A DNA stretch of 64,000 bases from the IMG/VR virus record IMGVR_UViG_2974579171_000001, positions 1 through 64,000 of that record; one strand, written 5' to 3'. The position numbers were made by a program, and so were the translations under genes. Below are positions 28,541-40,478 of this stretch, piece after piece. The stretch comes from a virus (lineage: Duplodnaviria; Heunggongvirae; Uroviricota; Caudoviricetes; Demerecviridae). The stretch's first letter is position 1, and each line of letters begins with the position of its first letter. Below the pieces are notes generated by a model that saw nothing but the letters and a program-made list of their open reading frames with translations, had not been told where the DNA came from and made no database searches.

Positions 28541-28763
28541 ATATTCATAAATTAGGGAACAGCGAGCCGATTACGCTGAGTGCAGAATCCCAACCGGAGC
28601 GCATTGAATAGAGTCGGTGGGTTAGTTGTAAAACTAGTACACAGGGGGCGGCAATCCCGGTTAGTGGCTAGAACGTGTAAAATGAGGCGTCTGAAACCTC
28701 TCCCCTAAACTCTTCTCTAATTTATAAATAGTGGGGTGTGGAAATCACTTATGTAGTAACACT

Positions 28764-28835
28764 GCCGTCCTAGTATAATTGGTATTATCAAGCCGTAACT
28801 GGTGGAAGATGTAGGTTCGAATCCTACGGTCGGTA
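28764..28835 (+). tRNA. tRNA-like element (degenerate; no clear anticodon stem)
   Basis: T-arm GTAGG-TTCGAAT-CCTAC and a 6/7-bp acceptor pairing (gccgtcc / ggtcggt). D and anticodon arms are non-canonical. Confidence 0.3.
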
Positions 28836-29337
28836 AGAACTGGATAACTGGTGCTTTTAACGTAAAAGCTTCCGAGGTTAGTTGCGCACTGCCTAAACCA
28901 CGCGGTAGTTGGTTCCAGACTAACCAACCAGTCTGCTGAATAGTTTTATTACGATTTAACTATGTCCAGGCTAAAGAAGAACTTTAGAAGGTATTCTAGG
29001 ATAGTGAAGTTCTTTCTCCATATCGGAGTAGTTTTTCAAGCTATCCACAAAGTGGGAAATGCTGACATGAGAGATGTCACTAATGGTGCACAATAGCACA
29101 GGTAATTCGCGATAACTCCTGTTGAGTAGCAGCAAAAGGTGGGAAGTCATGACCCCAAGCCTAACCGAGTCCTCAATATACCGCAGGACATAACCACCAA
29201 GTCACCCTGACTTAAACTGGAAAATAATAGACGTTACCGTATTTTGTCTTGAAATACTTAATGAGTGAGACTTATGACTCTCCCGGTATCGTCTGTATTT
29301 TTAAGAGTTTTTACGAGAGTTCTTAAAAATACTTAAA

Positions 29338-33042: not shown

Positions 33043-33117
33043 GGTTCTCAAGCTCATATGGTATGAGCACCCAGCTCATAACTGGAAGGTACGTAGGTTC
33101 GAATCCTCGGGGAGCCA
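33043..33117 (+). tRNA. tRNA-Met or tRNA-Ile2 (anticodon CAT)
   Basis: Acceptor ggttctc/gggagcc (with G-U pairs), D-stem gctc/gagc, anticodon loop ctcataa, T-loop ttcgaat, encoded CCA. Confidence 0.6.
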
Positions 33118-33139
33118 CCAAATTAAATAAGGACAACTA

Positions 33140-34757: not shown

Positions 34758-34833
34758 GCATTCCTAGAGTGTTACTGGACAGCATGTCGGTCTCCAAAAC
34801 CGTACGGTCTAGGTTCGAGTCCTAGTAGGTTTG
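34758..34833 (+). tRNA. tRNA-like element with CCA anticodon-like loop (Trp?) and poorly paired acceptor stem
   Basis: Perfect T-arm ctagg-ttcgagt-cctag and loop ctccaaa. The acceptor stem pairs only about 4 of 7. Confidence 0.3.
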
Positions 34834-35354: not shown

Positions 35355-35494
35355 TTGCTGAAAGAATTGTTAAATCAATTCAGGCACGCGTAGGAACACT
35401 GTCTCCGTAATTGAAAGATGAGGCACGGTTTGGAGAGGTATGCCGCTACACGCTACGGTGCTAACTCCGTCTAGGTGAAAATCCTAGTCAGCAA
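35355..35494 (+). ncRNA. 140-nt tRNA-like structured RNA (acceptor-like terminal stem plus T-arm-like hairpin)
   Basis: Terminal 7-bp pairing ttgctga/tcagcaa. Internal perfect hairpin gaattg-ttaaat-caattc. T-arm-like ctagg-tgaaaat-cctag next to the 3' end. No ORF. Confidence 0.3.
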
Positions 35495-35504
35495 TATAAA
35501 TTTA

Positions 35505-35584
35505 GGGTCGTTAGCCAAGCGGTTTGGCGGTGGACTGTTAATCCATGTCGAAAGACAACGTAGGTTCGAATCCTACACGGCCCG
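35505..35584 (+). tRNA. tRNA-Asn (anticodon GTT) with extended variable arm
   Basis: Acceptor gggtcgt/acggccc, D-stem gcca/tggc, anticodon arm gtgga-ctgttaa-tccat, 13-nt variable arm with gtc-gaaa-gac hairpin, T-arm gtagg-ttcgaat-cctac, encoded CCA. Confidence 0.65.
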
Positions 35585-35689
35585 CCAAATTCTGTGTAGA
35601 GTTAAGTAAACCGGTAGCCAACCAGCTATCATTGCTGACATCGAATTCAGCCACAGATACCATTTTCATTAATAACTGAGGAAACAAGC

Positions 35690-35875
35690 ATGTCCAAGAA
35701 TGTAATTGCACAGCTAGAAGTTCATCGTGATAGCACTATCAACAATATTGAAGTTGAGAAGAAATACATCGAAGAACTTAAACATGATATACTAGTAAGT
35801 CTTAATCGTCTTAATGTACGAAAAGAGTTTCTTAAGGAACTTAATGCAGCTATTGAAAAACTCAAAGCTGAGTAA
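35690..35875 (+). CDS. hypothetical coiled-coil protein
   Basis: 61-aa ORF with a Shine-Dalgarno site. Confidence 0.45.
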   Translation: MSKNVIAQLEVHRDSTINNIEVEKKYIEELKHDILVSLNRLNVRKEFLKELNAAIEKLKAE

Positions 35876-35884
35876 ATGAATTAT

Positions 35885-35958
35885 GCGACCGGGGCTGGCT
35901 TGGTAATGGTACTCCCCTGTCACGGGAGGGAATGTGGGTTCAAATCCCATCGGTCGCG
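35885..35958 (+). tRNA. tRNA-Asp (anticodon GTC)
   Basis: Acceptor gcgaccg/cggtcgc, anticodon arm ctccc-ctgtcac-gggag, T-arm gtggg-ttcaaat-cccat, encoded CCA. Confidence 0.8.
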
Positions 35959-35978
35959 CCAAATAAGGTAGGTTAGCT

Positions 35979-36137
35979 ATGGAACGTAGGGAGTTTACTC
36001 CAGAAGAGATAGAGCAGATAAAAGAATCTGCTATGAAAAATGCTAGAATATCTCTGTCACTGGAAGGTATCATTATAAGTGATGTAAACTTTGAAAAAAT
36101 CAAAGCCATAGCTGATGAACTGGAAAAAGTAATTTAA
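35979..36137 (+). CDS. small hypothetical protein (52 aa)
   Basis: MERREFTPEEIEQIKE... Below the ORF-track cutoff. Shine-Dalgarno GGTAGG. Confidence 0.3.
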   Translation: MERREFTPEEIEQIKESAMKNARISLSLEGIIISDVNFEKIKAIADELEKVI

Positions 36138-36138
36138 T

Positions 36139-36211
36139 ACATCCATAGCTCAATGGTTAGAGCTACCGCCTCTTAAGCGGAGGGTTCTAGGTTCAAGTCC
36201 TAGTGGGTGTA
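36139..36211 (+). tRNA. tRNA-Lys (anticodon CTT)
   Basis: Acceptor acatcca/tgggtgt, D-stem gctc/gagc, anticodon loop ctcttaa, T-arm ctagg-ttcaagt-cctag, encoded CCA. Confidence 0.7.
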
Positions 36212-36240
36212 CCAAACTAAACTAGCACGAGAAATATGCT

Positions 36241-36588
36241 ATGATTAATGCTAAAGAAGAATTGTTACTTGCCCTAAAGAATACTAATTCTGAAGTTAAG
36301 TGTATTAAGATAGAATTCGGTTATTATGGGAACAAAGAAGTTTGGGTATTGCCCGTAGGTTATACAGAAAAAGATATTGAAGATTTTCTAAATAATCTAG
36401 ACTTTAAATATGATTCTGGTTATGGTGGGCAATTGCTTTATGGTAATGTATGGTTTACTGACGGAACTTGGTTAGAACGTGGTGAATATGACGGTTCTGA
36501 GTGGTGGGAATATAAGGCTACACCAGAGATCCCAGAAGAATGCCGAACAATTAATGGTGAAGTAGATCGTACTTTACTGTTAAATTAA
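36241..36588 (+). CDS. hypothetical protein
   Basis: 115-aa ORF. Confidence 0.5.
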   Translation: MINAKEELLLALKNTNSEVKCIKIEFGYYGNKEVWVLPVGYTEKDIEDFLNNLDFKYDSGYGGQLLYGNVWFTDGTWLERGEYDGSEWWEYKATPEIPEECRTINGEVDRTLLLN

Positions 36589-36596
36589 CAAAATTT

Positions 36597-36697
36597 CAGT
36601 GCAGAACACGGGGCTAGCAATTCGGAAGTGCTGACTCATGATAAGCTGCCTATGTACTTGCGAAGCGGTCGTGTCCAAGACTCGGACTCTTGCACTG
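36597..36697 (+). ncRNA. structured RNA element A (about 100 nt, closed by 7-bp stem cagtgca/tgcactg)
   Basis: Long-range inverted repeat. Internal hairpin gtcc-aagactc-ggac. No ORF. Confidence 0.3.
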
Positions 36698-36710
36698 AAA
36701 ATAATCAAAC

Positions 36711-36830
36711 ATTCTAGCGTGGTTGATGGGGAAACCAGCTTGGCGAGGGCAGAAGCTCGTTCGATTCGAGTGAAAGAATGGTTCTCGTAAGTCCGCACAA
36801 GTGATAACAGGTTCGAGTCCTGTCTAGAAT
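36711..36830 (+). ncRNA. structured tRNA-like RNA element B (about 120 nt; closing stem attctag/ctagaat; canonical T-arm)
   Basis: T-arm acagg-ttcgagt-cctgt adjacent to the 3' acceptor-like strand. Internal ctcg-ttcgatt-cgag hairpin. Confidence 0.3.
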
Positions 36831-36853
36831 GACACTATAAAGTTTACTTATTA

Positions 36854-36953
36854 TGTAGGTTCCGATAGATCGGCGGGTCTATTCTGGCATTTAAGAGAGG
36901 TCTCGCAAACTTCTTTGTCAGCCGTGGGGTTGGTAGCCTCCAGGTGGCCTACA
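36854..36953 (+). ncRNA. structured RNA element C (about 100 nt, closed by tgtagg/cctaca)
   Basis: Long-range inverted repeat with internal palindromic segments. No ORF. Confidence 0.25.
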
Positions 36954-36980
36954 CAATAAGTAAATTTATTAAAAATTCAT

Positions 36981-37009
36981 TTGCTATTCTGCTTAATTCT
37001 CTGTATAAT
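36981..37009 (+). promoter_or_regulatory. T5-type early promoter
   Basis: TTGCTA, 17 bp, TATAAT, then atatcttataaagtga. Confidence 0.55.
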
Positions 37010-37041
37010 ATATCTTATAAAGTGAAGAGAAGGAAAGCTAA

Positions 37042-37239
37042 ATGAAGAAAGTTTTATTACTATCTGTATTCCTACTTACTGGTTGTTTTAAATTTGACTC
37101 AACCATTAATAAAGAGTATGAATTTGCTAAAAATTTCTGTGGCGGAGAGAGTAATATAAAGAATTTCTACATATATAGTACGATTCCTAGTACCGTTTAT
37201 TGTGTAGATGGACGAATTATTAATATTCCTCCACAATAA
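37042..37239 (+). CDS. small lipoprotein (65 aa)
   Basis: Signal peptide plus lipobox MKKVLLLSVFLLTGC. Confidence 0.5.
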   Translation: MKKVLLLSVFLLTGCFKFDSTINKEYEFAKNFCGGESNIKNFYIYSTIPSTVYCVDGRIINIPPQ

Positions 37240-37248
37240 AAGAATTAA

Positions 37249-37321
37249 CAGTGCGTAGCGCAGTTGGTAGCGTGGGAGCCTTGGATGCTTCGGGTCGCAG
37301 GTTCGAGTCCTGCCGCACTGA
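37249..37321 (+). tRNA. tRNA-Pro (anticodon TGG)
   Basis: Acceptor cagtgcg/cgcactg, D-stem gcgc/gcgt, anticodon arm ggagc-cttggat-gcttc, T-arm gcagg-ttcgagt-cctgc, encoded CCA. Confidence 0.85.
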
Positions 37322-37331
37322 CCAAACAATT

Positions 37332-37402
37332 GCGGGTGGGAGGCATAGAGTTCTTCTTAGTCTCATAAGCTAAGTAAGTCCAGGGCAGTACTGGAACCCG
37401 CT
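37332..37402 (+). tRNA. pseudo-tRNA (acceptor stem present, T-loop degenerate)
   Basis: 6-bp acceptor pairing gcgggt/acccgc plus ACCA. The T-arm is replaced by ccag-ggcagta-ctgg. Anticodon arm cttag...ctaag has a 9-nt loop. Confidence 0.25.
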
Positions 37403-37415
37403 ACCAAGTTATTTT

Positions 37416-37491
37416 GGGTTGCTAGCTCAATAGGTTTAGTAGCATCCGACTTTTAATCGGAAGGTTCTGGGTTCGAGTCCCAGGCGACCCA
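37416..37491 (+). tRNA. tRNA-Lys (anticodon TTT)
   Basis: Acceptor gggttgc/gcgaccc, anticodon arm tccga-cttttaa-tcgga, T-arm ctggg-ttcgagt-cccag, encoded CCA. Confidence 0.8.
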
Positions 37492-37512
37492 CCAATTTCA
37501 AGAAAAATGCAG

Positions 37513-37541
37513 TTGCTTGATGCTTAATTTCTTGTTATAAT
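37513..37541 (+). promoter_or_regulatory. T5-type promoter followed by a 9-bp leader hairpin and a structured RNA
   Basis: TTGCTT, 17 bp, TATAAT. Hairpin TGATGAGGA-gaaat-CCTCATCA at 37554-37575. Confidence 0.5.
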
Positions 37542-37589
37542 ATTTATATAAATTGATGAGGAGAAATCCTCATCATAGTTCACTAAGGT

Positions 37590-37756
37590 ATTAGCTCGAC
37601 CTAGGACTGGCTGCCAAAAAGCACGATCCCTACGATTCGGGAGAAGTTCTAGATTAGTCCACTAGATTCAGCGGCAACTGAATAGTGTATTGGGTTTGCG
37701 AGATGACGCAGTTCCTTCCGCTCGAAGCGAAGGTGCTGTAGTTACGCCGAGCTAAT
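37590..37756 (+). ncRNA. structured RNA (about 165 nt) closed by 9-bp long-range stem attagctcg/cgagctaat
   Basis: No ORF. Internal imperfect hairpin ccttccgc-tcgaa-gcgaagg. Lies between a promoter and tRNA-Ala. Confidence 0.3.
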
Positions 37757-37779
37757 AGCCTTAGTAAACTAAAGAGTTT

Positions 37780-37852
37780 GGGCGGTTAGTTTATCTGGGG
37801 AAAATACCTGACTTGCACTCAGGAGTGAGGAGTTCGACTCTCCTACTGTCCA
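37780..37852 (+). tRNA. tRNA-Ala (anticodon TGC)
   Basis: Acceptor gggcggt/actgtcc, anticodon arm cctga-cttgcac-tcagg, T-arm aggag-ttcgact-ctcct, encoded CCA. Confidence 0.75.
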
Positions 37853-37873
37853 CCAAATTAAAGGGTATGTAGT

Positions 37874-38374
37874 ATGAAGGTAGCTAAAAATGGGAGAAAA
37901 GATAACTTAAATGAGTTAGAAATATTCCTCCACAATAACAAACTAGACGTAACCGCTAGTAATTACATGCAAATAGCTCTATGGTATAATGGGTATATAG
38001 TTAGAAAGGCCAATCCTAGTAAGGATAAGAAGTCAAATACATACCAAAAGAGACTAGAGCATAGCTATCAAAGATCCCTAAGAGTAGTACAGCTTTACTG
38101 TTATATCAATAATATAAATAATAAGCTGGGATATATTTATATAATATCTAATCCAGCTTTTCCAGGCTGGTTTAAAGTAGGAGCAGCCAAAGATGCTGAG
38201 ACTAGATTAAATACCTATCAAACATACTCCCCTTTTCGGGACTATGTATTAGAGTATTATAAACTAGTAGATAATTATGAACTCAAAGAAAAAGAAATCC
38301 TAAGTTCTTTTTCATCTAGAAATAATGAGTGGGTTCATGCTCCACTTGAAGAAATAATTGCTTGCGTGGCGTAA
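37874..38374 (+). CDS. T5orf172-domain (GIY-YIG-like) protein; 3' end overlaps tRNA-Leu
   Basis: 166 aa. GYIYIISNPAFPGWFKVGAAKDAETRLNTYQ matches the T5orf172/MUG113 motif. The stop at 38372-38374 lies 15 nt inside the tRNA. Confidence 0.6.
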   Translation: MKVAKNGRKDNLNELEIFLHNNKLDVTASNYMQIALWYNGYIVRKANPSKDKKSNTYQKRLEHSYQRSLRVVQLYCYINNINNKLGYIYIISNPAFPGWFKVGAAKDAETRLNTYQTYSPFRDYVLEYYKLVDNYELKEKEILSSFSSRNNEWVHAPLEEIIACVA

Positions 38375-38439
38375 TTGGTAGACGCGCGATCCTTAGGAGT
38401 TCGTGTTAATTCGTGTGGGTTCGAGTCCCTCCGCAAGCA
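38360..38439 (+). tRNA. tRNA-Leu (anticodon TAG), type II
   Basis: Acceptor gcttgcg/cgcaagc, D-stem gcgt/acgc, anticodon loop cttagga (G37), 11-nt variable arm, T-loop ttcgagt, encoded CCA. Confidence 0.7.
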
Positions 38440-38554
38440 CCAAATTTGATGGTCAGAGTAAATTAAACCTACTATCTCGGTTGAGCTGTTTTAATGGGTT
38501 CGAATCCCAGCGAGGCGTAACTGCCTGGTGTGATAGAGGCATCATCTTATTATT

Positions 38555-38642
38555 GGAAGAGCAAATCGAATTGGCGACGAAAACCGCTTGGAAAGTGGCT
38601 GACTGGTAAAACGGCTTGAGAGTTCAAATCTCTCCTCTTCCG
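38555..38642 (+). tRNA. tRNA-Ser (anticodon GGA), type II
   Basis: Acceptor ggaagag/ctcttcc, anticodon loop ttggaaa, long variable arm, T-arm gagag-ttcaaat-ctctc, encoded CCA. D-arm atypical. Confidence 0.6.
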
Positions 38643-38664
38643 CCAAACATTTGAGGTAATAATA

Positions 38665-39012
38665 ATGCTAGCAAAAGATAAAGCTCTAGAGTTTTTAGCA
38701 TCTTTAGATGAAGATAAGATTATAGATGCTGCTGAAAAAGCTGGAATGCCTGATTTAACATATCTGGAACGTGCTATTATTGCTCGTGATAAACTACAGA
38801 AAGAATTTGCTATTGCTCAGGAGGAGTTTTATACTCGCTATAACGCTCTTACTAAGCAAATTGAAAATGAGTGTTCTCATACTTGGGGAGTAACAGAAAA
38901 CCTAGGTAATGATCACGATGGCTGGTCTAAAGTAAAAATTACCTACTACCATCGTAGGACTTGTAAAATTTGTGGAAAAGTAGAAAACTTCACTAGTACG
39001 AGTGACTATTAG
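38665..39012 (+). CDS. hypothetical protein with C-terminal zinc-ribbon-like Cys pairs
   Basis: 115 aa. ...CSHTW...HRRTCKICGK. Confidence 0.5.
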   Translation: MLAKDKALEFLASLDEDKIIDAAEKAGMPDLTYLERAIIARDKLQKEFAIAQEEFYTRYNALTKQIENECSHTWGVTENLGNDHDGWSKVKITYYHRRTCKICGKVENFTSTSDY

Positions 39013-39025
39013 TACAATAAATACT

Positions 39026-39112
39026 AGAAGATAGGACGTAGTGGTACGTAACTGGTCTTGAAAACCAGCCCGCTGTAGCGATACGGTGATGGTTCGACTC
39101 CATTATCTTCTG
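39026..39112 (+). tRNA. tRNA-Ser (anticodon TGA), type II
   Basis: Acceptor agaagat/atcttct, anticodon arm ctggt-cttgaaa-accag, variable arm with cgc-tgta-gcg hairpin, T-arm gatgg-ttcgact-ccatt, encoded CCA. Confidence 0.8.
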
Positions 39113-39131
39113 CCAACTTATAGGATAATAT

Positions 39132-39314
39132 ATGTCTTTAACAAAAACTGTGAAGGTTACACTAACTGATGGCACAGAGTTTAGTGCACAAATAACCTTA
39201 CTAGAGGACGGTTATTGGGAAGTATATCTTCCACATGTTAATTCTACTGGTAGAGGATGGACGCAACAACAGGCTATTGTTGATGCTTTAAATGAGGCTT
39301 CTGCTGGTTTATAA
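39132..39314 (+). CDS. hypothetical protein
   Basis: 60-aa ORF with a Shine-Dalgarno site. Confidence 0.4.
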   Translation: MSLTKTVKVTLTDGTEFSAQITLLEDGYWEVYLPHVNSTGRGWTQQQAIVDALNEASAGL

Positions 39315-39321
39315 AAGTTCT

Positions 39322-39452
39322 TGAAGTATGCCGGAATCGGTAGACGGGGCTGCCTAAAAGGTTTATAGGGAACATCCACTCCCTGCAACATACCTCATAA
39401 AGCGGCTGAGATAAATGGTCTATCTCGTGAAGGTTCAAGTCCTTCTACTTCT
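39322..39452 (+). ncRNA. 131-nt tRNA-like structured RNA (acceptor-like ends, canonical T-arm, extra internal hairpins)
   Basis: Ends tgaagta/tacttct pair 6 of 7. T-arm gaagg-ttcaagt-ccttc. Internal hairpins aggga-acatccac-tccct and gagata-aatggtc-tatctc. D-like arm with GG. Confidence 0.3.
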
Positions 39453-39568
39453 TGATACATCTATGGCTCAAAGTGTAACGGTGCTATTTGATGCTCTTGG
39501 TAAGACTTCCCCGACATGCGTTCGGGAGTAAGCTGCTAAGACTAGAGTAGAAGAGTTTCGGAGAGCCG

Positions 39569-39686
39569 CCACAATTGAAAATTCGTACTCGTCTTGAGCT
39601 GCGTGCAATAGGAGATAACTTGATTAGTATTCTAGAACATGCTAATTGAGGAAGGTTTCGCTAACCCTGCGAGTTTTCAATTGTGG
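39569..39686 (+). ncRNA. structured RNA closed by a perfect 13-bp long-range stem (ccacaattgaaaa / ttttcaattgtgg); 3' arm overlaps tRNA-His 5' end
   Basis: 13-bp perfect inverted repeat enclosing about 90 nt. No ORF. Confidence 0.3.
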
Positions 39687-39756
39687 CTATATCATAATTG
39701 GTTAATGATCCTGATTGTGAATCAGGCCTATGTGGATTCGAATTCCACTAGCCACC
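39683..39756 (+). tRNA. tRNA-His (anticodon GTG)
   Basis: Acceptor gtggcta/tagccac, D-stem tcat/atga, anticodon arm cctga-ttgtgaa-tcagg, T-arm gtgga-ttcgaat-tccac, encoded CCA. Confidence 0.85.
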
Positions 39757-39784
39757 CCAAATTAACTTAAATAGGAAATAAAAT

Positions 39785-40386: not shown

Positions 40387-40459
40387 GCGGTTAAGCACAC
40401 GGGTTGTGTCGCAGGCCTTCCAAGCCTCGCTGAGTAGGGTTCGATTCCCTCTAGCCGCT
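40387..40459 (+). tRNA. tRNA-Gly (anticodon TCC)
   Basis: Acceptor gcggtta/tagccgc, D-stem caca/tgtg, anticodon arm aggc-cttccaa-gcct, T-loop ttcgatt, encoded CCA. Confidence 0.7.
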
Positions 40460-40478
40460 CCAACTTTAAGGAAACATT

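What the first reader, a model, noticed from the sequence alone, without database searches (positions are those of the whole stretch)
35355..39686. F5. Family of 100-170-nt structured RNAs and tRNA-like elements interspersed with the tRNA genes
Besides about 23 canonical tRNAs, the tRNA region holds several ORF-free segments closed by long-range perfect stems, some with canonical T-arms. Examples are 35355-35494 (7-bp acceptor-like closure ttgctga/tcagcaa, ctagg-tgaaaat-cctag hairpin), 36597-36697, 36711-36830 (closure attctag/ctagaat plus acagg-ttcgagt-cctgt T-arm), 36854-36953, 37590-37756 (9-bp closure, directly after a promoter with a 9-bp leader hairpin), 39322-39452 (tRNA-like ends plus extra hairpins), and 39569-39686 (13-bp perfect closure whose 3' arm overlaps the tRNA-His acceptor stem, implying mutually exclusive folding). 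Degenerate tRNA-like elements occur at 28764-28835, 34758-34833 and 37332-37402. I vaguely recall reports of small stable RNAs in T5 but cannot place them. These could be such RNAs, tRNA-processing decoys, intron- or ribozyme-like elements, or anti-defence RNAs.
Basis: seen in the sequence. Interest (0 to 1): 0.6.

Follow-up and report, generated by a model that had tools for sequence, protein, structure and literature searches.

The report
T5-type stable RNAs among tRNA genes
The ORF-free structured segments between the tRNA genes of this T5-like Salmonella phage are real RNA genes: mostly the long-known "stable RNAs of unknown function" of phage T5, plus three unannotated ones, and several are tRNA bodies whose anticodon loop has been replaced by a conserved extra module.

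Summary
The window is Salmonella phage SE11, a T5-like phage. RNAI and RNA3 lie alongside them.

Compensatory base changes across T5-like phages support the folds of RNA1, RNA2, RNA2H and 35355-35495. Support is weaker for RNAIV, RNA3 and RNAI.

RNA1 and RNA2 are complete tRNA bodies with a conserved module in place of the anticodon loop. The 35355 element has a similar cloverleaf. RNA2 also occurs in Acinetobacter T4-like phages, and the 35355 element in Klebsiella Mydovirus.

RNAIII sits inside a conserved 20-bp duplex that joins the RNAI 3' end to the tRNA-His 5' end. This looks like an RNase III site.

These RNAs are not one sequence family, not ordinary tRNAs, and not known introns or ribozymes. 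Their existence is already known. Their function is still unknown.

The parts
35355..35495 (+). E35353: unannotated tRNA-shaped RNA between tRNA-Cys and tRNA-Asn. It has a 7-bp acceptor-like stem (35356-35362 / 35488-35494), a T-like arm CUAGG-UGAAAAU-CCUAG and enlarged inner arms.
   Evidence: MFE fold z = -1.86. Found in 220 phage records; no RNA feature lies under any of the 40 listed matches. 92.3% of cells paired and 8/32 pairs compensatory, against <=2 in the slid controls. ARAGORN in relaxed intron mode calls it a tRNA with a 63-nt insert. In Klebsiella Mydovirus it lies between two tRNA-Ser genes. T5 has a T5orf172 nuclease-like ORF at this locus instead.
35590..35662 (+). RNA3: 73-nt degenerate tRNA-like RNA directly after tRNA-Asn, ending in ACCA.
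   Evidence: 100% identical to the T5 misc_RNA rna3, 'putative tRNA-like RNA'. z = -3.0. 3 compensatory pairs out of 17.
36594..36700 (+). E36590: unannotated multibranch RNA closed by an 11-bp stem, directly upstream of RNA2.
   Evidence: z = -2.3. 97.5% identical to the unannotated gap next to RNA2 in T5. Found only in Tequintavirus-type loci at >=96.7% identity. No compensatory change is available, but variable columns avoid the paired positions: 3/72 paired against 12/48 unpaired, Fisher p = 0.0012.
36710..36834 (+). RNA2: a tRNA body (8-bp acceptor, D arm, anticodon-stem-like helix, canonical T arm). The anticodon loop is replaced by a ~55-nt module that contains a second T-loop hairpin and the conserved single strands UGAAAGAAUGG and CGUAAnUCCGCA.
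   Evidence: 97% identical to the T5 misc_RNA rna2, 'tRNA-like stable RNA'. 96.8% paired, 22/28 pairs compensatory, 0/500 shuffles reach this. The RNA2 covariance model also matches ordinary tRNAs full-length at 12-30 bits. Present in 485 phage records, including 14 Acinetobacter phage records; the two inspected (133, Henu6) are T4-like.
36853..36955 (+). RNAIV: 103-nt three-armed RNA closed by UGUAGG/CCUACA.
   Evidence: 98% identical to the T5 misc_RNA rnaIV. z = -2.0. 3 compensatory pairs out of 35.
37513..37575 (+). Promoter P13b (-35 TTGCTT at 37513-37518, -10 TATAAT at 37536-37541) and the 9-bp leader hairpin at 37554-37575.
   Evidence: Read directly from the sequence. T5 annotates promoter P13b at the orthologous place. 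The hairpin is listed with 9 pairs.
37589..37760 (+). RNA2H: 172-nt RNA with a 10-bp closing stem and three arms.
   Evidence: 98% identical to the T5 misc_RNA rna2H. z = -3.3, 0/200 shuffles. 9 compensatory pairs out of 47. The core is conserved, while the peripheral hairpins are exchanged for different hairpins in Epseptimavirus-type phages.
38443..38554 (+). E38443: unannotated conserved element between tRNA-Leu and tRNA-Ser(GGA), with a T-loop hairpin UGGG-UUCGAAU-CCCA.
   Evidence: 100% identical in BF23, where it is an unannotated gap. 79% identical in Pectobacterium DU_PP_V and 80-82% in Klebsiella Sugarlandvirus. Two of its hairpins show compensatory changes. The single-sequence z-score is only -0.24.
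39320..39464 (+). RNA1: a class-II (long variable arm) tRNA body. The anticodon loop is replaced by two further helices that end in the near-invariant loop AACAUCCAC.
   Evidence: 84% identical to the T5 misc_RNA rna1, 'tRNA-like stable RNA'. It matches the Rfam tRNA model at 27.4 bits (threshold 29) with a 45-nt insertion at the anticodon loop. 96.9% paired, 15/34 pairs compensatory, 0/500 shuffles.
39465..39571 (+). RNAI: 107-nt irregular hairpin closed by GGCUC/GAGCC and ending in GCCA, a tRNA-like 3' end.
   Evidence: 91% identical to the T5 misc_RNA rnaI. z = -0.9. 2 compensatory pairs within Tequintavirus. The closing stem changes to GGGCC/GGCUC in Pectobacterium DU_PP_V.
39576..39681 (+). 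RNAIII: 106-nt stem-loop RNA that abuts tRNA-His.
   Evidence: 99% identical to the T5 misc_RNA rnaIII. z = -2.9. Too conserved for a covariation test. Other lineages have unrelated sequence at this place.
39568..39587 (+). 5' arm of the 20-bp duplex: the RNAI 3' end GCCA, the spacer CAAU and the start of RNAIII.
   Evidence: Pairs continuously with 39668-39687. Kept with compensatory changes in three lineages whose enclosed sequences are unrelated.
39668..39687 (+). 3' arm of the 20-bp duplex: the end of RNAIII, U-1 and the first 5 nt (GUGGC) of tRNA-His.
   Evidence: The RNAIII ends annotated in T5 (39576 and 39681) leave a 2-nt 3' overhang on this duplex (inference).
37330..37406 (+). A diverged tRNA-fMet-like element. 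It has the same acceptor and CAU anticodon arm as T5 tRNA-fMet, but non-canonical D and T arms.
   Evidence: Direct comparison with T5 tRNA-fMet. Not found by ARAGORN at any threshold tried nor by Rfam. Present in only three other loci.
28763..28836 (+). Weak tRNA-like element inside the region orthologous to T5 RNAX.
   Evidence: Rfam tRNA 35.5 bits. Relaxed ARAGORN gives a cloverleaf with a 3-bp anticodon stem. Lies within the T5 misc_RNA rnaX.

Best explanation
**What they are.** These segments are independent RNA genes embedded in the phage's tRNA operons. They are the T5-type 'stable RNAs' plus three unannotated relatives of the same kind. They are transcribed together with tRNAs and small ORFs, and host RNA-processing nucleases release them (inferred).

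**RNA1, RNA2 and, less canonically, the 35355 element act as natural 'tRNA scaffolds'.**
- They keep a tRNA acceptor stem and T arm. RNA1 and RNA2 also keep a D arm with the elbow nucleotides.
- That body would make RNase P and the 3'-trimming enzymes cut them out precisely (inferred).
- It would also shield them from decay, which would explain why they accumulate as stable RNAs (inferred).
- The anticodon loop is replaced by a conserved structured payload, so they cannot decode (shown from the structure).
- The acceptor sequences drift freely, so conserved aminoacylation is unlikely (inferred).
- The payload loops are what selection holds constant. They most likely bind a host or phage factor in trans, as accessory anti-host functions (inferred; partner unknown).

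**RNAIII works differently.**
- It is the loop of a conserved 20-bp duplex that pairs the RNAI 3' end with the first nucleotides of tRNA-His.
- This duplex most likely serves as an RNase III site that separates RNAI, RNAIII and tRNA-His (inferred).

**RNA2H, RNAIV, RNAI and the 36594 and 38443 elements** are other structured RNAs of the same operons with no assignable partner.
For: **Identity**
- The window is identical to phage SE11.
- RNA1, RNA2, RNA2H, RNAI, RNAIII, RNAIV and RNA3 map at 84-100% identity to misc_RNA features of T5 and BF23 annotated 'stable RNA with unknown functions'.

**Structure under selection**

| RNA | Cells paired | Compensatory pairs | Shuffles reaching this | Slid controls |
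|---|---|---|---|---|
| RNA1 | 96.9% | 15/34 | 0/500 | <=5 |
| RNA2 | 96.8% | 22/28 | 0/500 | <=6 |
| E35353 | 92.3% | 8/32 | 3/500 | <=2 |
| RNA2H | not counted | 9/47 | not run | not run |

**tRNA body**
- RNA1 aligns to the whole Rfam tRNA model, with the insertion exactly at the anticodon loop.
- The RNA2 covariance model matches ordinary tRNAs full-length.
- ARAGORN in relaxed intron mode calls all three as tRNAs with inserts of 41-63 nt.
- The D-loop GG and the T-loop UUCRA are invariant in RNA1 and RNA2.

**Payload conserved, acceptor not**
- The RNA1 loop AACAUCCAC is near-invariant (15 of 16 sequences) and the RNA2 core is largely invariant, while the acceptor stems covary freely.

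**Discrete spread between phage families, always inside tRNA clusters**
- RNA2 in Acinetobacter T4-like phages.
- E35353 in Klebsiella Mydovirus.
- Metagenome and genome scans with the RNA2 core motif. All three divergent contigs examined (L054, L056, L059) carry tRNA genes around it.

**The scaffold principle is established experimentally in E. coli.** Replacing the anticodon stem-loop of a tRNA with an insert gives precisely processed, nuclease-protected RNA (PMC3753655).

**RNase III stem**
- A 20-21-bp duplex is kept with compensatory changes around three unrelated inserts.
- The annotated RNAIII ends give a 2-nt 3' overhang on it.

**Accessory nature**
- T5 mutants that lack 3-8 kb of the tRNA region are viable (PMC10802454).
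- Phage tRNA genes of this region are known counter-defence factors (PMC11555353; PMC10802454).
Against: - There are no expression, processing or binding data for this phage. The stability claim rests on T5 annotation only.
- No partner or target was found. The conserved loops have no complementary site in the 64-kb window, and Rfam recognises no motif.
- In the PARIS study only the tRNA-containing fragment of a T5 deletion rescued infection. The other fragments had no effect.
- E35353 lacks a canonical elbow (T-like loop UGAAAAU, no GG in the D-like loop), and its inner fold is uncertain.
- The RNA2 alignment used for the pair counts was fitted to the model, which biases the counts upward.
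- Presence is patchy. E35353 is absent from T5, and RNAIII is replaced in other lineages. That also fits dispensable spacers.
- RNAIII, RNAI and E36590 have little or no covariation support.
Confidence: 0.5

Rival explanations
1. Cis-acting spacers only. The elements fold on their own to keep neighbouring tRNAs from misfolding and to offer RNase P, RNase III and RNase E sites. The 'stable RNAs' are then inert by-products of tRNA-operon processing with no function in trans.
For: - The 20-bp duplex at tRNA-His is conserved while its enclosed sequence is replaced by unrelated sequences.
- The peripheral hairpins of RNA2H are exchanged wholesale.
- The elements abut tRNAs.
- Their presence is patchy, and the region can be deleted.
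Against: - A spacer has no need for near-invariant unpaired loops: RNA1 AACAUCCAC, the RNA2 core UGAAAGAAUGG / CGUAAnUCCGCA, and the E35353 T-like loop UGAAAAU.
- RNA2 and E35353 have moved as discrete units into tRNA clusters of unrelated phage families with different neighbouring tRNAs.
Confidence: 0.3
2. Decaying tRNA genes. The elements are pseudo-tRNAs that picked up insertions and are drifting.
For: - The region does hold degenerate tRNA-like sequences: 28763-28836, 37330-37406 and RNA3.
- The E35353 copy in phage KKP_3822 has a broken T arm.
- Mobile nuclease genes (T5orf172, HNH) churn the region.
Against: - Compensatory substitutions maintain every helix of RNA1 and RNA2 and most helices of E35353 across genera and families.
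- The inserts themselves are the most conserved parts.
Confidence: 0.07
3. Intron-bearing tRNA genes. The inserts are spliced out to give functional tRNAs.
For: ARAGORN in permissive intron mode models RNA1, RNA2 and E35353 as tRNAs with inserts of 41-63 nt in the anticodon loop.
Against: - No Rfam intron or ribozyme family matches, even at E<=10.
- From established knowledge: bacterial and phage tRNA introns are group I introns of about 200 nt or more, and E. coli has no splicing endonuclease for short introns.
- T5 annotates the full-length 144-nt and 125-nt molecules as the stable species.
- The anticodons implied by ARAGORN (AAA, CCG, CUA) sit in arbitrary, poorly defined loops.
Confidence: 0.03
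4. Ordinary tRNAs that were mis-parsed, or short protein-coding genes.
For:
- Short ORFs overlap some elements, and some records annotate 'hypothetical protein' there.
Against: - None of the seven main segments reaches the ARAGORN default or the Rfam tRNA threshold.
- Indels among homologues are not multiples of three, and substitutions are compensatory in stems.
Confidence: 0.02

Closest known systems
Stable RNAs of bacteriophages T5 and BF23 (RNAI, RNAIII, RNAIV, RNA1, RNA2, RNA2H, RNA3, RNAX), annotated in NC_005859 / AY543070 and NC_042564 / AJ604530
   Same: Orthologous sequence (84-100% identity), the same order and the same neighbours in the tRNA region. T5 annotates RNA1, RNA2 and RNA3 as tRNA-like.
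   Different: SE11 also carries E35353 where T5 has a T5orf172 ORF. E36590 and E38443 are conserved in T5 and/or BF23 but are not annotated there.
T4 RNAC and RNAD (species 1 and species 2 RNAs)
   Same: Small stable RNAs encoded in a phage tRNA cluster. Their roles were still described as unknown in 2010 and 2022. The 3' part of RNAC is tRNA-like.
   Different: No sequence similarity to any SE11 element, and the RNA2 covariance model does not hit them. The RNA2 relatives in Straboviridae are in Acinetobacter phages, not in T4.
Engineered 'tRNA scaffold' for recombinant RNA in E. coli (PMC3753655)
   Same: Acceptor stem, D arm and T arm are kept and the anticodon stem-loop is replaced by an insert. 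The chimera is processed by the tRNA machinery and protected from decay. RNA1 and RNA2 have exactly this layout.
   Different: That is a laboratory construct. The elements here are natural, conserved genes, and the function of their inserts is unknown.
tmRNA and bacterial Y RNA (YrlA) tRNA-like domains
   Same: Non-decoding RNAs that present a tRNA-like acceptor / T-arm module to tRNA-binding proteins.
   Different: - ARAGORN finds no tmRNA in the window, and Rfam lists no tmRNA or YrlA match.
- There is no tag reading frame or pseudoknot domain.
- From memory: in YrlA the RNA ends lie on the anticodon side, whereas here they lie at the acceptor stem.
RNase III processing stems of rRNA operons and phage early transcripts
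   Same: A ~20-bp uninterrupted duplex formed by sequences that flank an excised RNA. The annotated ends give a 2-nt 3' overhang. RNase III is reported to take part in T4 tRNA synthesis (McClain 1979, listed in the references of PMC4810235).
   Different: Cleavage has not been shown for this stem. It overlaps the acceptor strand of tRNA-His and the CCA end of RNAI, an arrangement I have not seen described.

Membership tests
T5/BF23 stable RNAs | Sequence orthology and synteny with the annotated misc_RNA genes | tested here: met
   RNAIII 99%, RNAI 91%, RNA1 84%, RNA2H 98%, RNAIV 98%, RNA2 97%, RNA3 100%, in the same order relative to the tRNA genes. Not met for E35353 (absent from T5). E36590 and E38443 are orthologous to unannotated gaps.
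T5/BF23 stable RNAs | Accumulation as discrete stable RNA species in infected cells | not testable with these tools
   Rests only on the notes in the T5/BF23 records.
tRNA (Rfam RF00005 / ARAGORN) | Score at or above the curated threshold with a 7-nt anticodon loop | tested here: not met
   RNA1 scores 27.4 bits against a threshold of 29, with 45 nt in place of the loop. The other main elements do not hit at E<=10. Default ARAGORN calls none of them.
tRNA-like fold (cloverleaf body) | Acceptor stem stacked on a T arm with a T-loop, a D arm with GG, and an anticodon-stem-like helix, all maintained by covariation | tested here: met
   Met for RNA1 and RNA2. Partly met for E35353, which has the acceptor and T-like arm but no canonical elbow. 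Not met for RNA2H, RNAIV, RNAIII or E36590.
Intron-containing tRNA (group I) | Group I catalytic core within the insert | tested here: not met
   The inserts are 41-63 nt, and no Rfam intron family matches.
tmRNA | tRNA-like domain plus a tag reading frame | tested here: not met
   ARAGORN, which also looks for tmRNA, finds none. Rfam finds none.
T4 RNAC/RNAD | Sequence or structure-profile similarity | tested here: not met
   No BLAST similarity. The RNA2 covariance model does not hit the T4 locus apart from a tRNA.
RNase III substrate | About two helical turns of uninterrupted double-stranded RNA | tested here: met
   20 continuous pairs in SE11/T5, 20 in EH5-type phages and 21 in DU_PP_V, with compensatory changes.
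RNase III substrate | Staggered cleavage that leaves 2-nt 3' overhangs and depends on rnc | tested here: inconclusive
   The RNAIII ends annotated in T5 (39576 and 39681) fit a 2-nt 3' overhang. How those ends were determined could not be checked, and dependence on rnc cannot be tested here.
   All-against-all BLAST gives only chance-level short matches. The RNA2 model does not hit RNA1, E35353 or the others in the window.

The most novel reading that the evidence does not exclude
RNA1, RNA2 and E35353 are phage-made, non-decoding tRNA mimics: natural tRNA scaffolds that carry payload modules. They are exchanged between Demerecviridae, Acinetobacter T4-like Straboviridae and Klebsiella Mydovirus. 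They would act in trans as decoys or inhibitors of host tRNA-binding proteins, for example tRNA-targeting immune nucleases that read the tRNA body or variable arm. That would add an RNA-based layer to the counter-defence role already shown for the neighbouring phage tRNAs.
Probability: 0.2. Interest if true: 0.75.

Novelty: already known. Interest (0 to 1): 0.4.

Why it matters
The existence of these RNAs is not new. T5 and BF23 records annotate them, and T4 has analogous RNAs. What they do is still listed as unknown.

The comparative analysis adds testable structure to that old question.
- **Selected folds.** At least four of the RNAs (RNA1, RNA2, RNA2H, E35353) have folds maintained by compensatory changes.
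- **tRNA bodies with payloads.** Two are tRNA bodies whose anticodon loop is replaced by a conserved payload. A third (35355) has a similar cloverleaf.
- **Spread between families.** Two of them have spread between unrelated phage families, always inside tRNA clusters.
- **A processing stem at tRNA-His.** One locus is a conserved 20-bp duplex that ties the maturation of tRNA-His to its upstream neighbours.
- **A reason to test now.** Phage tRNA clusters have recently been shown to counter tRNA-cleaving defence systems. These RNAs are therefore obvious candidates for the same conflict, and the exact loops to mutate are now defined.

For genome annotation, three conserved RNA genes are unannotated in T5, BF23 and the listed matches. 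Overlapping 'hypothetical proteins' in some records are probably spurious.

Tried and rejected
- **Rfam.** At the curated thresholds and at E<=10, only tRNA-type matches and obvious noise appeared. No intron, ribozyme, tmRNA, Y RNA, 6S or riboswitch family matched.
- **Similarity among the elements, and to T4 RNAC/RNAD.** None by BLAST or with the RNA2 covariance model. ARAGORN sees only the 3' part of T4 RNAC as tRNA-like.
- **Antisense targets.** Complements of the conserved loops of RNA1, RNA2 and E35353 occur in the 64-kb window only at the genes themselves, allowing one mismatch.
- **Bacterial origin.** A scan of 185,579 genomes with the RNA2 core motif returned one contig. At 167 kb and with a dense tRNA cluster it looks like a T4-like phage. 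The metagenome scan gave 12 contigs; the ones examined are phage-like tRNA clusters.
- **IMG/VR scans.** They returned few and mostly redundant T5-like genomes. GenBank phage records were more useful.
- **Aminoacylation.** I considered conserved charging. RNA2 ends in GCCA or UCCA in some lineages. I rejected charging as a conserved property because the acceptor stems and discriminator bases vary freely and most lineages lack an encoded CCA.
- **Helix CGAG/CUCG in the RNA2 insert.** The MFE fold predicts it, but its variants (CUAG, CUUG) break it. I left it out of the model.
- **Literature.** Nine full-text searches found no functional study of the T5 stable RNAs. The original 1980s papers of the Ksenzenko/Bayev laboratory are not in the library, so what I say about them is from memory.
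- **E36590 and RNAIII.** Covariation cannot be tested because the homologues are too similar.

Full report
**Source and setting**

The 5-kb stretch around the finding is 100% identical to Salmonella phage SE11 (MK972715 / NC_048786) at the same coordinates. 586 phage records share parts of it, nearly all of them T5-like phages of enterobacteria.

ARAGORN finds 22 tRNA genes in the window, all on the + strand between 29.3 and 42.0 kb. Rfam at its curated thresholds finds 23 tRNA matches and no other family.

**What is already annotated**

BLAST hits of the segments fall on features named rna2, rnaIV and rna2H in T5, BF23, DT57C and DT571/2. The T5 reference record and the BF23 tRNA-region record annotate eight misc_RNA genes. 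RNA1 and RNA2 are 'tRNA-like stable RNA', and RNA3 is 'putative tRNA-like RNA'.

Mapping these features onto the window gives:

| T5 RNA | Window coordinates | Identity |
|---|---|---|
| RNAIII | 39576-39681 | 99% |
| RNAI | 39465-39571 | 91% |
| RNA1 | 39320-39464 | 84% |
| RNA2H | 37589-37760 | 98% |
| RNAIV | 36853-36955 | 98% |
| RNA2 | 36710-36834 | 97% |
| RNA3 | 35590-35662 | 100% |

  - 36597-36697 lies in a 97.5%-conserved gap next to RNA2.
  - 35355-35494 sits where T5 has an ORF instead. That ORF is the founding T5orf172 / MUG113 nuclease-like protein, and SE11 has another such ORF at 37874-38374.

**Are the folds more than chance?**

Single-sequence folding gives, for every element, a multibranch structure closed by a terminal stem. 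The z-scores are modest, from -0.9 to -3.3. RNA2H (0/200 shuffles fold as well), RNAIII (1/200) and RNA3 (3/200) stand out most clearly. The case therefore rests on comparative evidence.

I fetched the tRNA regions of diverse relatives:
- Epseptimavirus-type phages
- Pectobacterium phages My1 and DU_PP_V
- Klebsiella Sugarlandvirus
- Obesumbacterium phage Ob_P
- Acinetobacter T4-like phages
- Klebsiella Mydovirus

I also used IMG/VR and metagenome loci.

**RNA1**

- The Rfam tRNA model aligns end to end at 27.4 bits (threshold 29). It covers the acceptor stem, the D arm, a 5-bp anticodon stem, a long variable arm and a canonical T arm. A 45-nt insertion sits exactly where the anticodon loop should be.
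- The D stem of 3 bp with a large GG-containing loop and the long variable arm resemble class-II tRNAs such as tRNA-Ser. This rests on my knowledge of E. coli tRNA-Ser.
- On 16 distinct sequences from four genera, my structure is 96.9% paired. This structure is the cloverleaf plus two extra helices that extend the anticodon arm. 15 of its 34 pairs show compensatory change. No shuffle out of 500 reaches these values, and the slid controls give 42-53% pairing and at most 5 such pairs.
- The apical loop AACAUCCAC is the same in 15 of the 16 sequences and the variable-arm loop AAAUGGUC is nearly invariant, whereas the acceptor stem changes completely (GAAGUA, GGAAUA, GAUGCCG).

**RNA2**

- Homologues occur in 485 phage records. 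They include Pectobacterium and Klebsiella T5-like phages and, unexpectedly, 14 Acinetobacter phage records.
- In phage 133 the element lies between tRNA-Gly and tRNA-Cys.
- The alignment shows compensatory replacement in every helix.
- I built a covariance model from Tequintavirus-type sequences with five helices. It recovers all homologues at 60-163 bits. On the resulting alignment of 16 sequences, 96.8% of cells pair and 22 of 28 pairs are compensatory. No shuffle out of 500 reaches this, and the slid controls give 34-43% pairing. This alignment is fitted to the model, which inflates the counts somewhat. The model-free MAFFT/RNAalifold run already gave 17 compensatory pairs out of 26.
- The same model matches ordinary tRNAs over its full length at 12-30 bits. 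This shows the scaffold is tRNA-shaped.
- The ~55-nt module that replaces the anticodon loop contains a second hairpin with a perfect T-loop. Its stem is CUCG-UUCGAUU-CGAG, changing to ACGG/CCGU, AUGG/CCAU and GGGAG/CUCCC in other lineages. The module also carries the conserved single strands UGAAAGAAUGG and CGUAAnUCCGCA.
- The 3' tail after the acceptor stem varies: GACA, GACU, GACC, GCCA, UCCA.
- A motif scan found 12 metagenome contigs and one 'genome' contig. That contig is 167 kb with a dense tRNA cluster and looks like a phage. No bacterial chromosomal copy appeared.

**E35353 (35355-35495)**

- Present in 220 phage records, with no RNA feature under any listed match.
- It occurs in Klebsiella Sugarlandvirus (88% identity) and in Klebsiella Mydovirus, a different family of myoviruses. 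There it lies between two tRNA-Ser genes.
- Compensatory changes:
  - The acceptor-like stem changes at three consecutive pairs (UUGCUGA/UCAGCAA to UUGUCUA/UAGACAA).
  - The T-like arm changes from CUAGG/CCUAG to CUUGG/CCAAG.
  - The loop UGAAAAU is invariant.
- On seven sequences, 92.3% of cells pair and 8 of 32 pairs are compensatory. 3 of 500 shuffles reach this, and the slid controls give at most 2.
- The inner fold differs between the single-sequence and the consensus predictions, so I treat it as uncertain.
- With relaxed thresholds and intron mode, ARAGORN calls E35353, RNA2 and RNA1 as tRNAs with inserts of 63, 48 and 41 nt.

**The other elements**

- **RNA2H.** It has 9 compensatory pairs out of 47. 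Its core is conserved, and its peripheral hairpins are replaced by different hairpins in Epseptimavirus-type phages.
- **RNAIV, RNA3 and RNAI.** They have 3, 3 and 2 compensatory pairs.
- **E36590.** It is too conserved for a covariation test, but its variable columns avoid the predicted stems (3/72 against 12/48, p = 0.0012).
- **E38443 (38443-38554).** I also found this further unannotated element between tRNA-Leu and tRNA-Ser(GGA). It is conserved from BF23 to Pectobacterium and Klebsiella phages, with compensatory changes in two hairpins.

**The RNAIII locus**

  - Its 5' arm is the GCCA end of RNAI, a 4-nt spacer and the start of RNAIII.
  - Its 3' arm is the end of RNAIII, one U and the first five bases of tRNA-His.
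- In EH5, Ob_P and a related locus, RNAIII is replaced by an unrelated shorter sequence. In Pectobacterium DU_PP_V it is replaced by another unrelated one. A duplex of 20-21 bp that reaches 5 nt into tRNA-His is kept in each case.
- DU_PP_V shows compensatory changes: CAAUUGAAAAU/GUUUUCAAUUG becomes CAAGUGAGUAC/GUAUUCACUUG.
- The duplex is absent upstream of tRNA-His in Sugarlandvirus and Mydovirus.
- The RNAIII ends annotated in T5 (39576 and 39681) leave a 2-nt 3' overhang on this duplex. That is the signature of RNase III. This is an inference from annotation, not a measured result.
- The phage tRNA-His gene has U at -1, where I recall E. coli encoding G-1. The duplex may therefore also bear on the unusual 5' end of this tRNA. 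This is speculation.

**How it most likely works**

RNA1 and RNA2 have exactly the layout of the engineered 'tRNA scaffold'. In that construct the anticodon stem-loop of a tRNA is replaced by an insert. The chimera is processed precisely by E. coli enzymes and escapes degradation (PMC3753655). This gives a mechanistic reason why these molecules would be cut out of polycistronic transcripts and accumulate as stable RNAs.

What selection conserves is the elbow and the payload loops, not the acceptor sequence or a CCA end. This argues against conserved charging and for a payload that binds something in trans.

The region is accessory. T5 mutants that lack 3 or 8 kb of it are viable (PMC10802454). 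The tRNAs of this region protect T5-like phages against tRNA-cleaving defence systems (PMC11555353; PMC10802454). A role in the same conflict is plausible but unproven. In the PARIS study only the fragment that carried tRNA genes rescued infection.

The main rival is that the elements are cis-acting processing spacers whose excised products are inert. The RNAIII locus and the swapped hairpins of RNA2H fit that reading well. The invariant loops and the horizontal spread of RNA2 and E35353 fit it poorly.

**What it is not**

- No Rfam family other than tRNA matches at the curated thresholds, and the matches at E<=10 are chance-level.
- The elements share no significant similarity with one another or with T4 RNAC/RNAD.
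- The conserved loops have no complementary sites in the window.
- The inserts are far too short for group I introns.
  - 34758-34833 is a normal tRNA-Trp.
  - 28764-28835 is a borderline tRNA inside RNAX.
  - 37332-37402 is a diverged relative of tRNA-fMet that keeps the acceptor and anticodon arms but has lost canonical D and T arms.

**Verdict**

The identification with T5 stable RNAs is correct, so the phenomenon is already known.

The increments are these:
- covariation-backed structures;
- the tRNA-scaffold-with-payload reading of RNA1 and RNA2, and tentatively of E35353;
- three unannotated elements;
- the cross-family distribution;
- the conserved RNase III-type duplex at tRNA-His.

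Function remains unknown, as it does for the analogous T4 RNAs (PMC3014915 and PMC9697503).

Noticed in passing
window 38443-38554: A conserved, unannotated structured element between tRNA-Leu(UAG) and tRNA-Ser(GGA), with a T-loop hairpin. It is 100% identical in BF23 and 79-82% identical in Pectobacterium and Klebsiella T5-like phages, with compensatory changes. T5 has the HNH endonuclease gene hegC at this position instead.
   Followed up: partly
window 39682-39759: The phage tRNA-His gene has the same acceptor stem and C73 as I recall for E. coli tRNA-His, but U instead of G at position -1. T5 annotates the tRNA as 78 nt, starting at that U. Its 5' strand is locked in the 20-bp duplex with the RNAI 3' end.
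   Followed up: partly
window 37330-37406: This element has the same acceptor stem and CAU anticodon arm as T5 tRNA-fMet, but non-canonical D and T arms (T-like loop GGCAGUA). That is the mirror image of RNA1 and RNA2, which keep the elbow and lose the anticodon. It occurs in only three other fetched loci. SE11 has no BLAST-detectable tRNA-fMet or tRNA-Val orthologue of T5.
   Followed up: partly
window 40387-40462, 38555-38645, 33043-33120: Default ARAGORN misses three tRNA genes that T5 or BF23 annotate and that are 100% identical here: tRNA-Gly(UCC), tRNA-Ser(GGA) and tRNA-Ile2(CAU). Rfam at its curated thresholds also misses the first two.
   Followed up: yes
window 37874-38374; L001 8007-8525 (T5.069): ORFs with a T5orf172 / MUG113 (GIY-YIG-like) domain sit at different intergenic sites of the tRNA region in SE11 and T5. 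In T5 the ORF occupies the place where SE11 has the E35353 RNA. This suggests that mobile nuclease genes displace RNA genes.
   Followed up: partly
L040 1502-1640 (Salmonella phage KKP_3822): The E35353 copy in this phage has several deletions and a broken T-like arm. It appears to be a decaying copy.
   Followed up: no
window 37042-37239: A 65-aa ORF after promoter P13a starts MKKVLLLSVFLLTGC, which looks like a lipoprotein signal peptide with a lipobox. It has no Pfam match.
   Followed up: no
window 28708-29337: This region is orthologous to the T5 'RNAX', a 719-nt annotated stable RNA upstream of tRNA-Arg. It contains the weak tRNA-like element at 28763-28836. I did not analyse it further.
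   Followed up: no
L059 7053-7127 and 7358-7451 (167-kb contig filed as a bacterial bin): This contig looks like a T4-like phage. Next to its RNA2-like element ARAGORN calls a tRNA with a CUA (amber) anticodon and a tRNA-Tyr with an AUA anticodon. These are possible suppressor or odd tRNAs.
   Followed up: no
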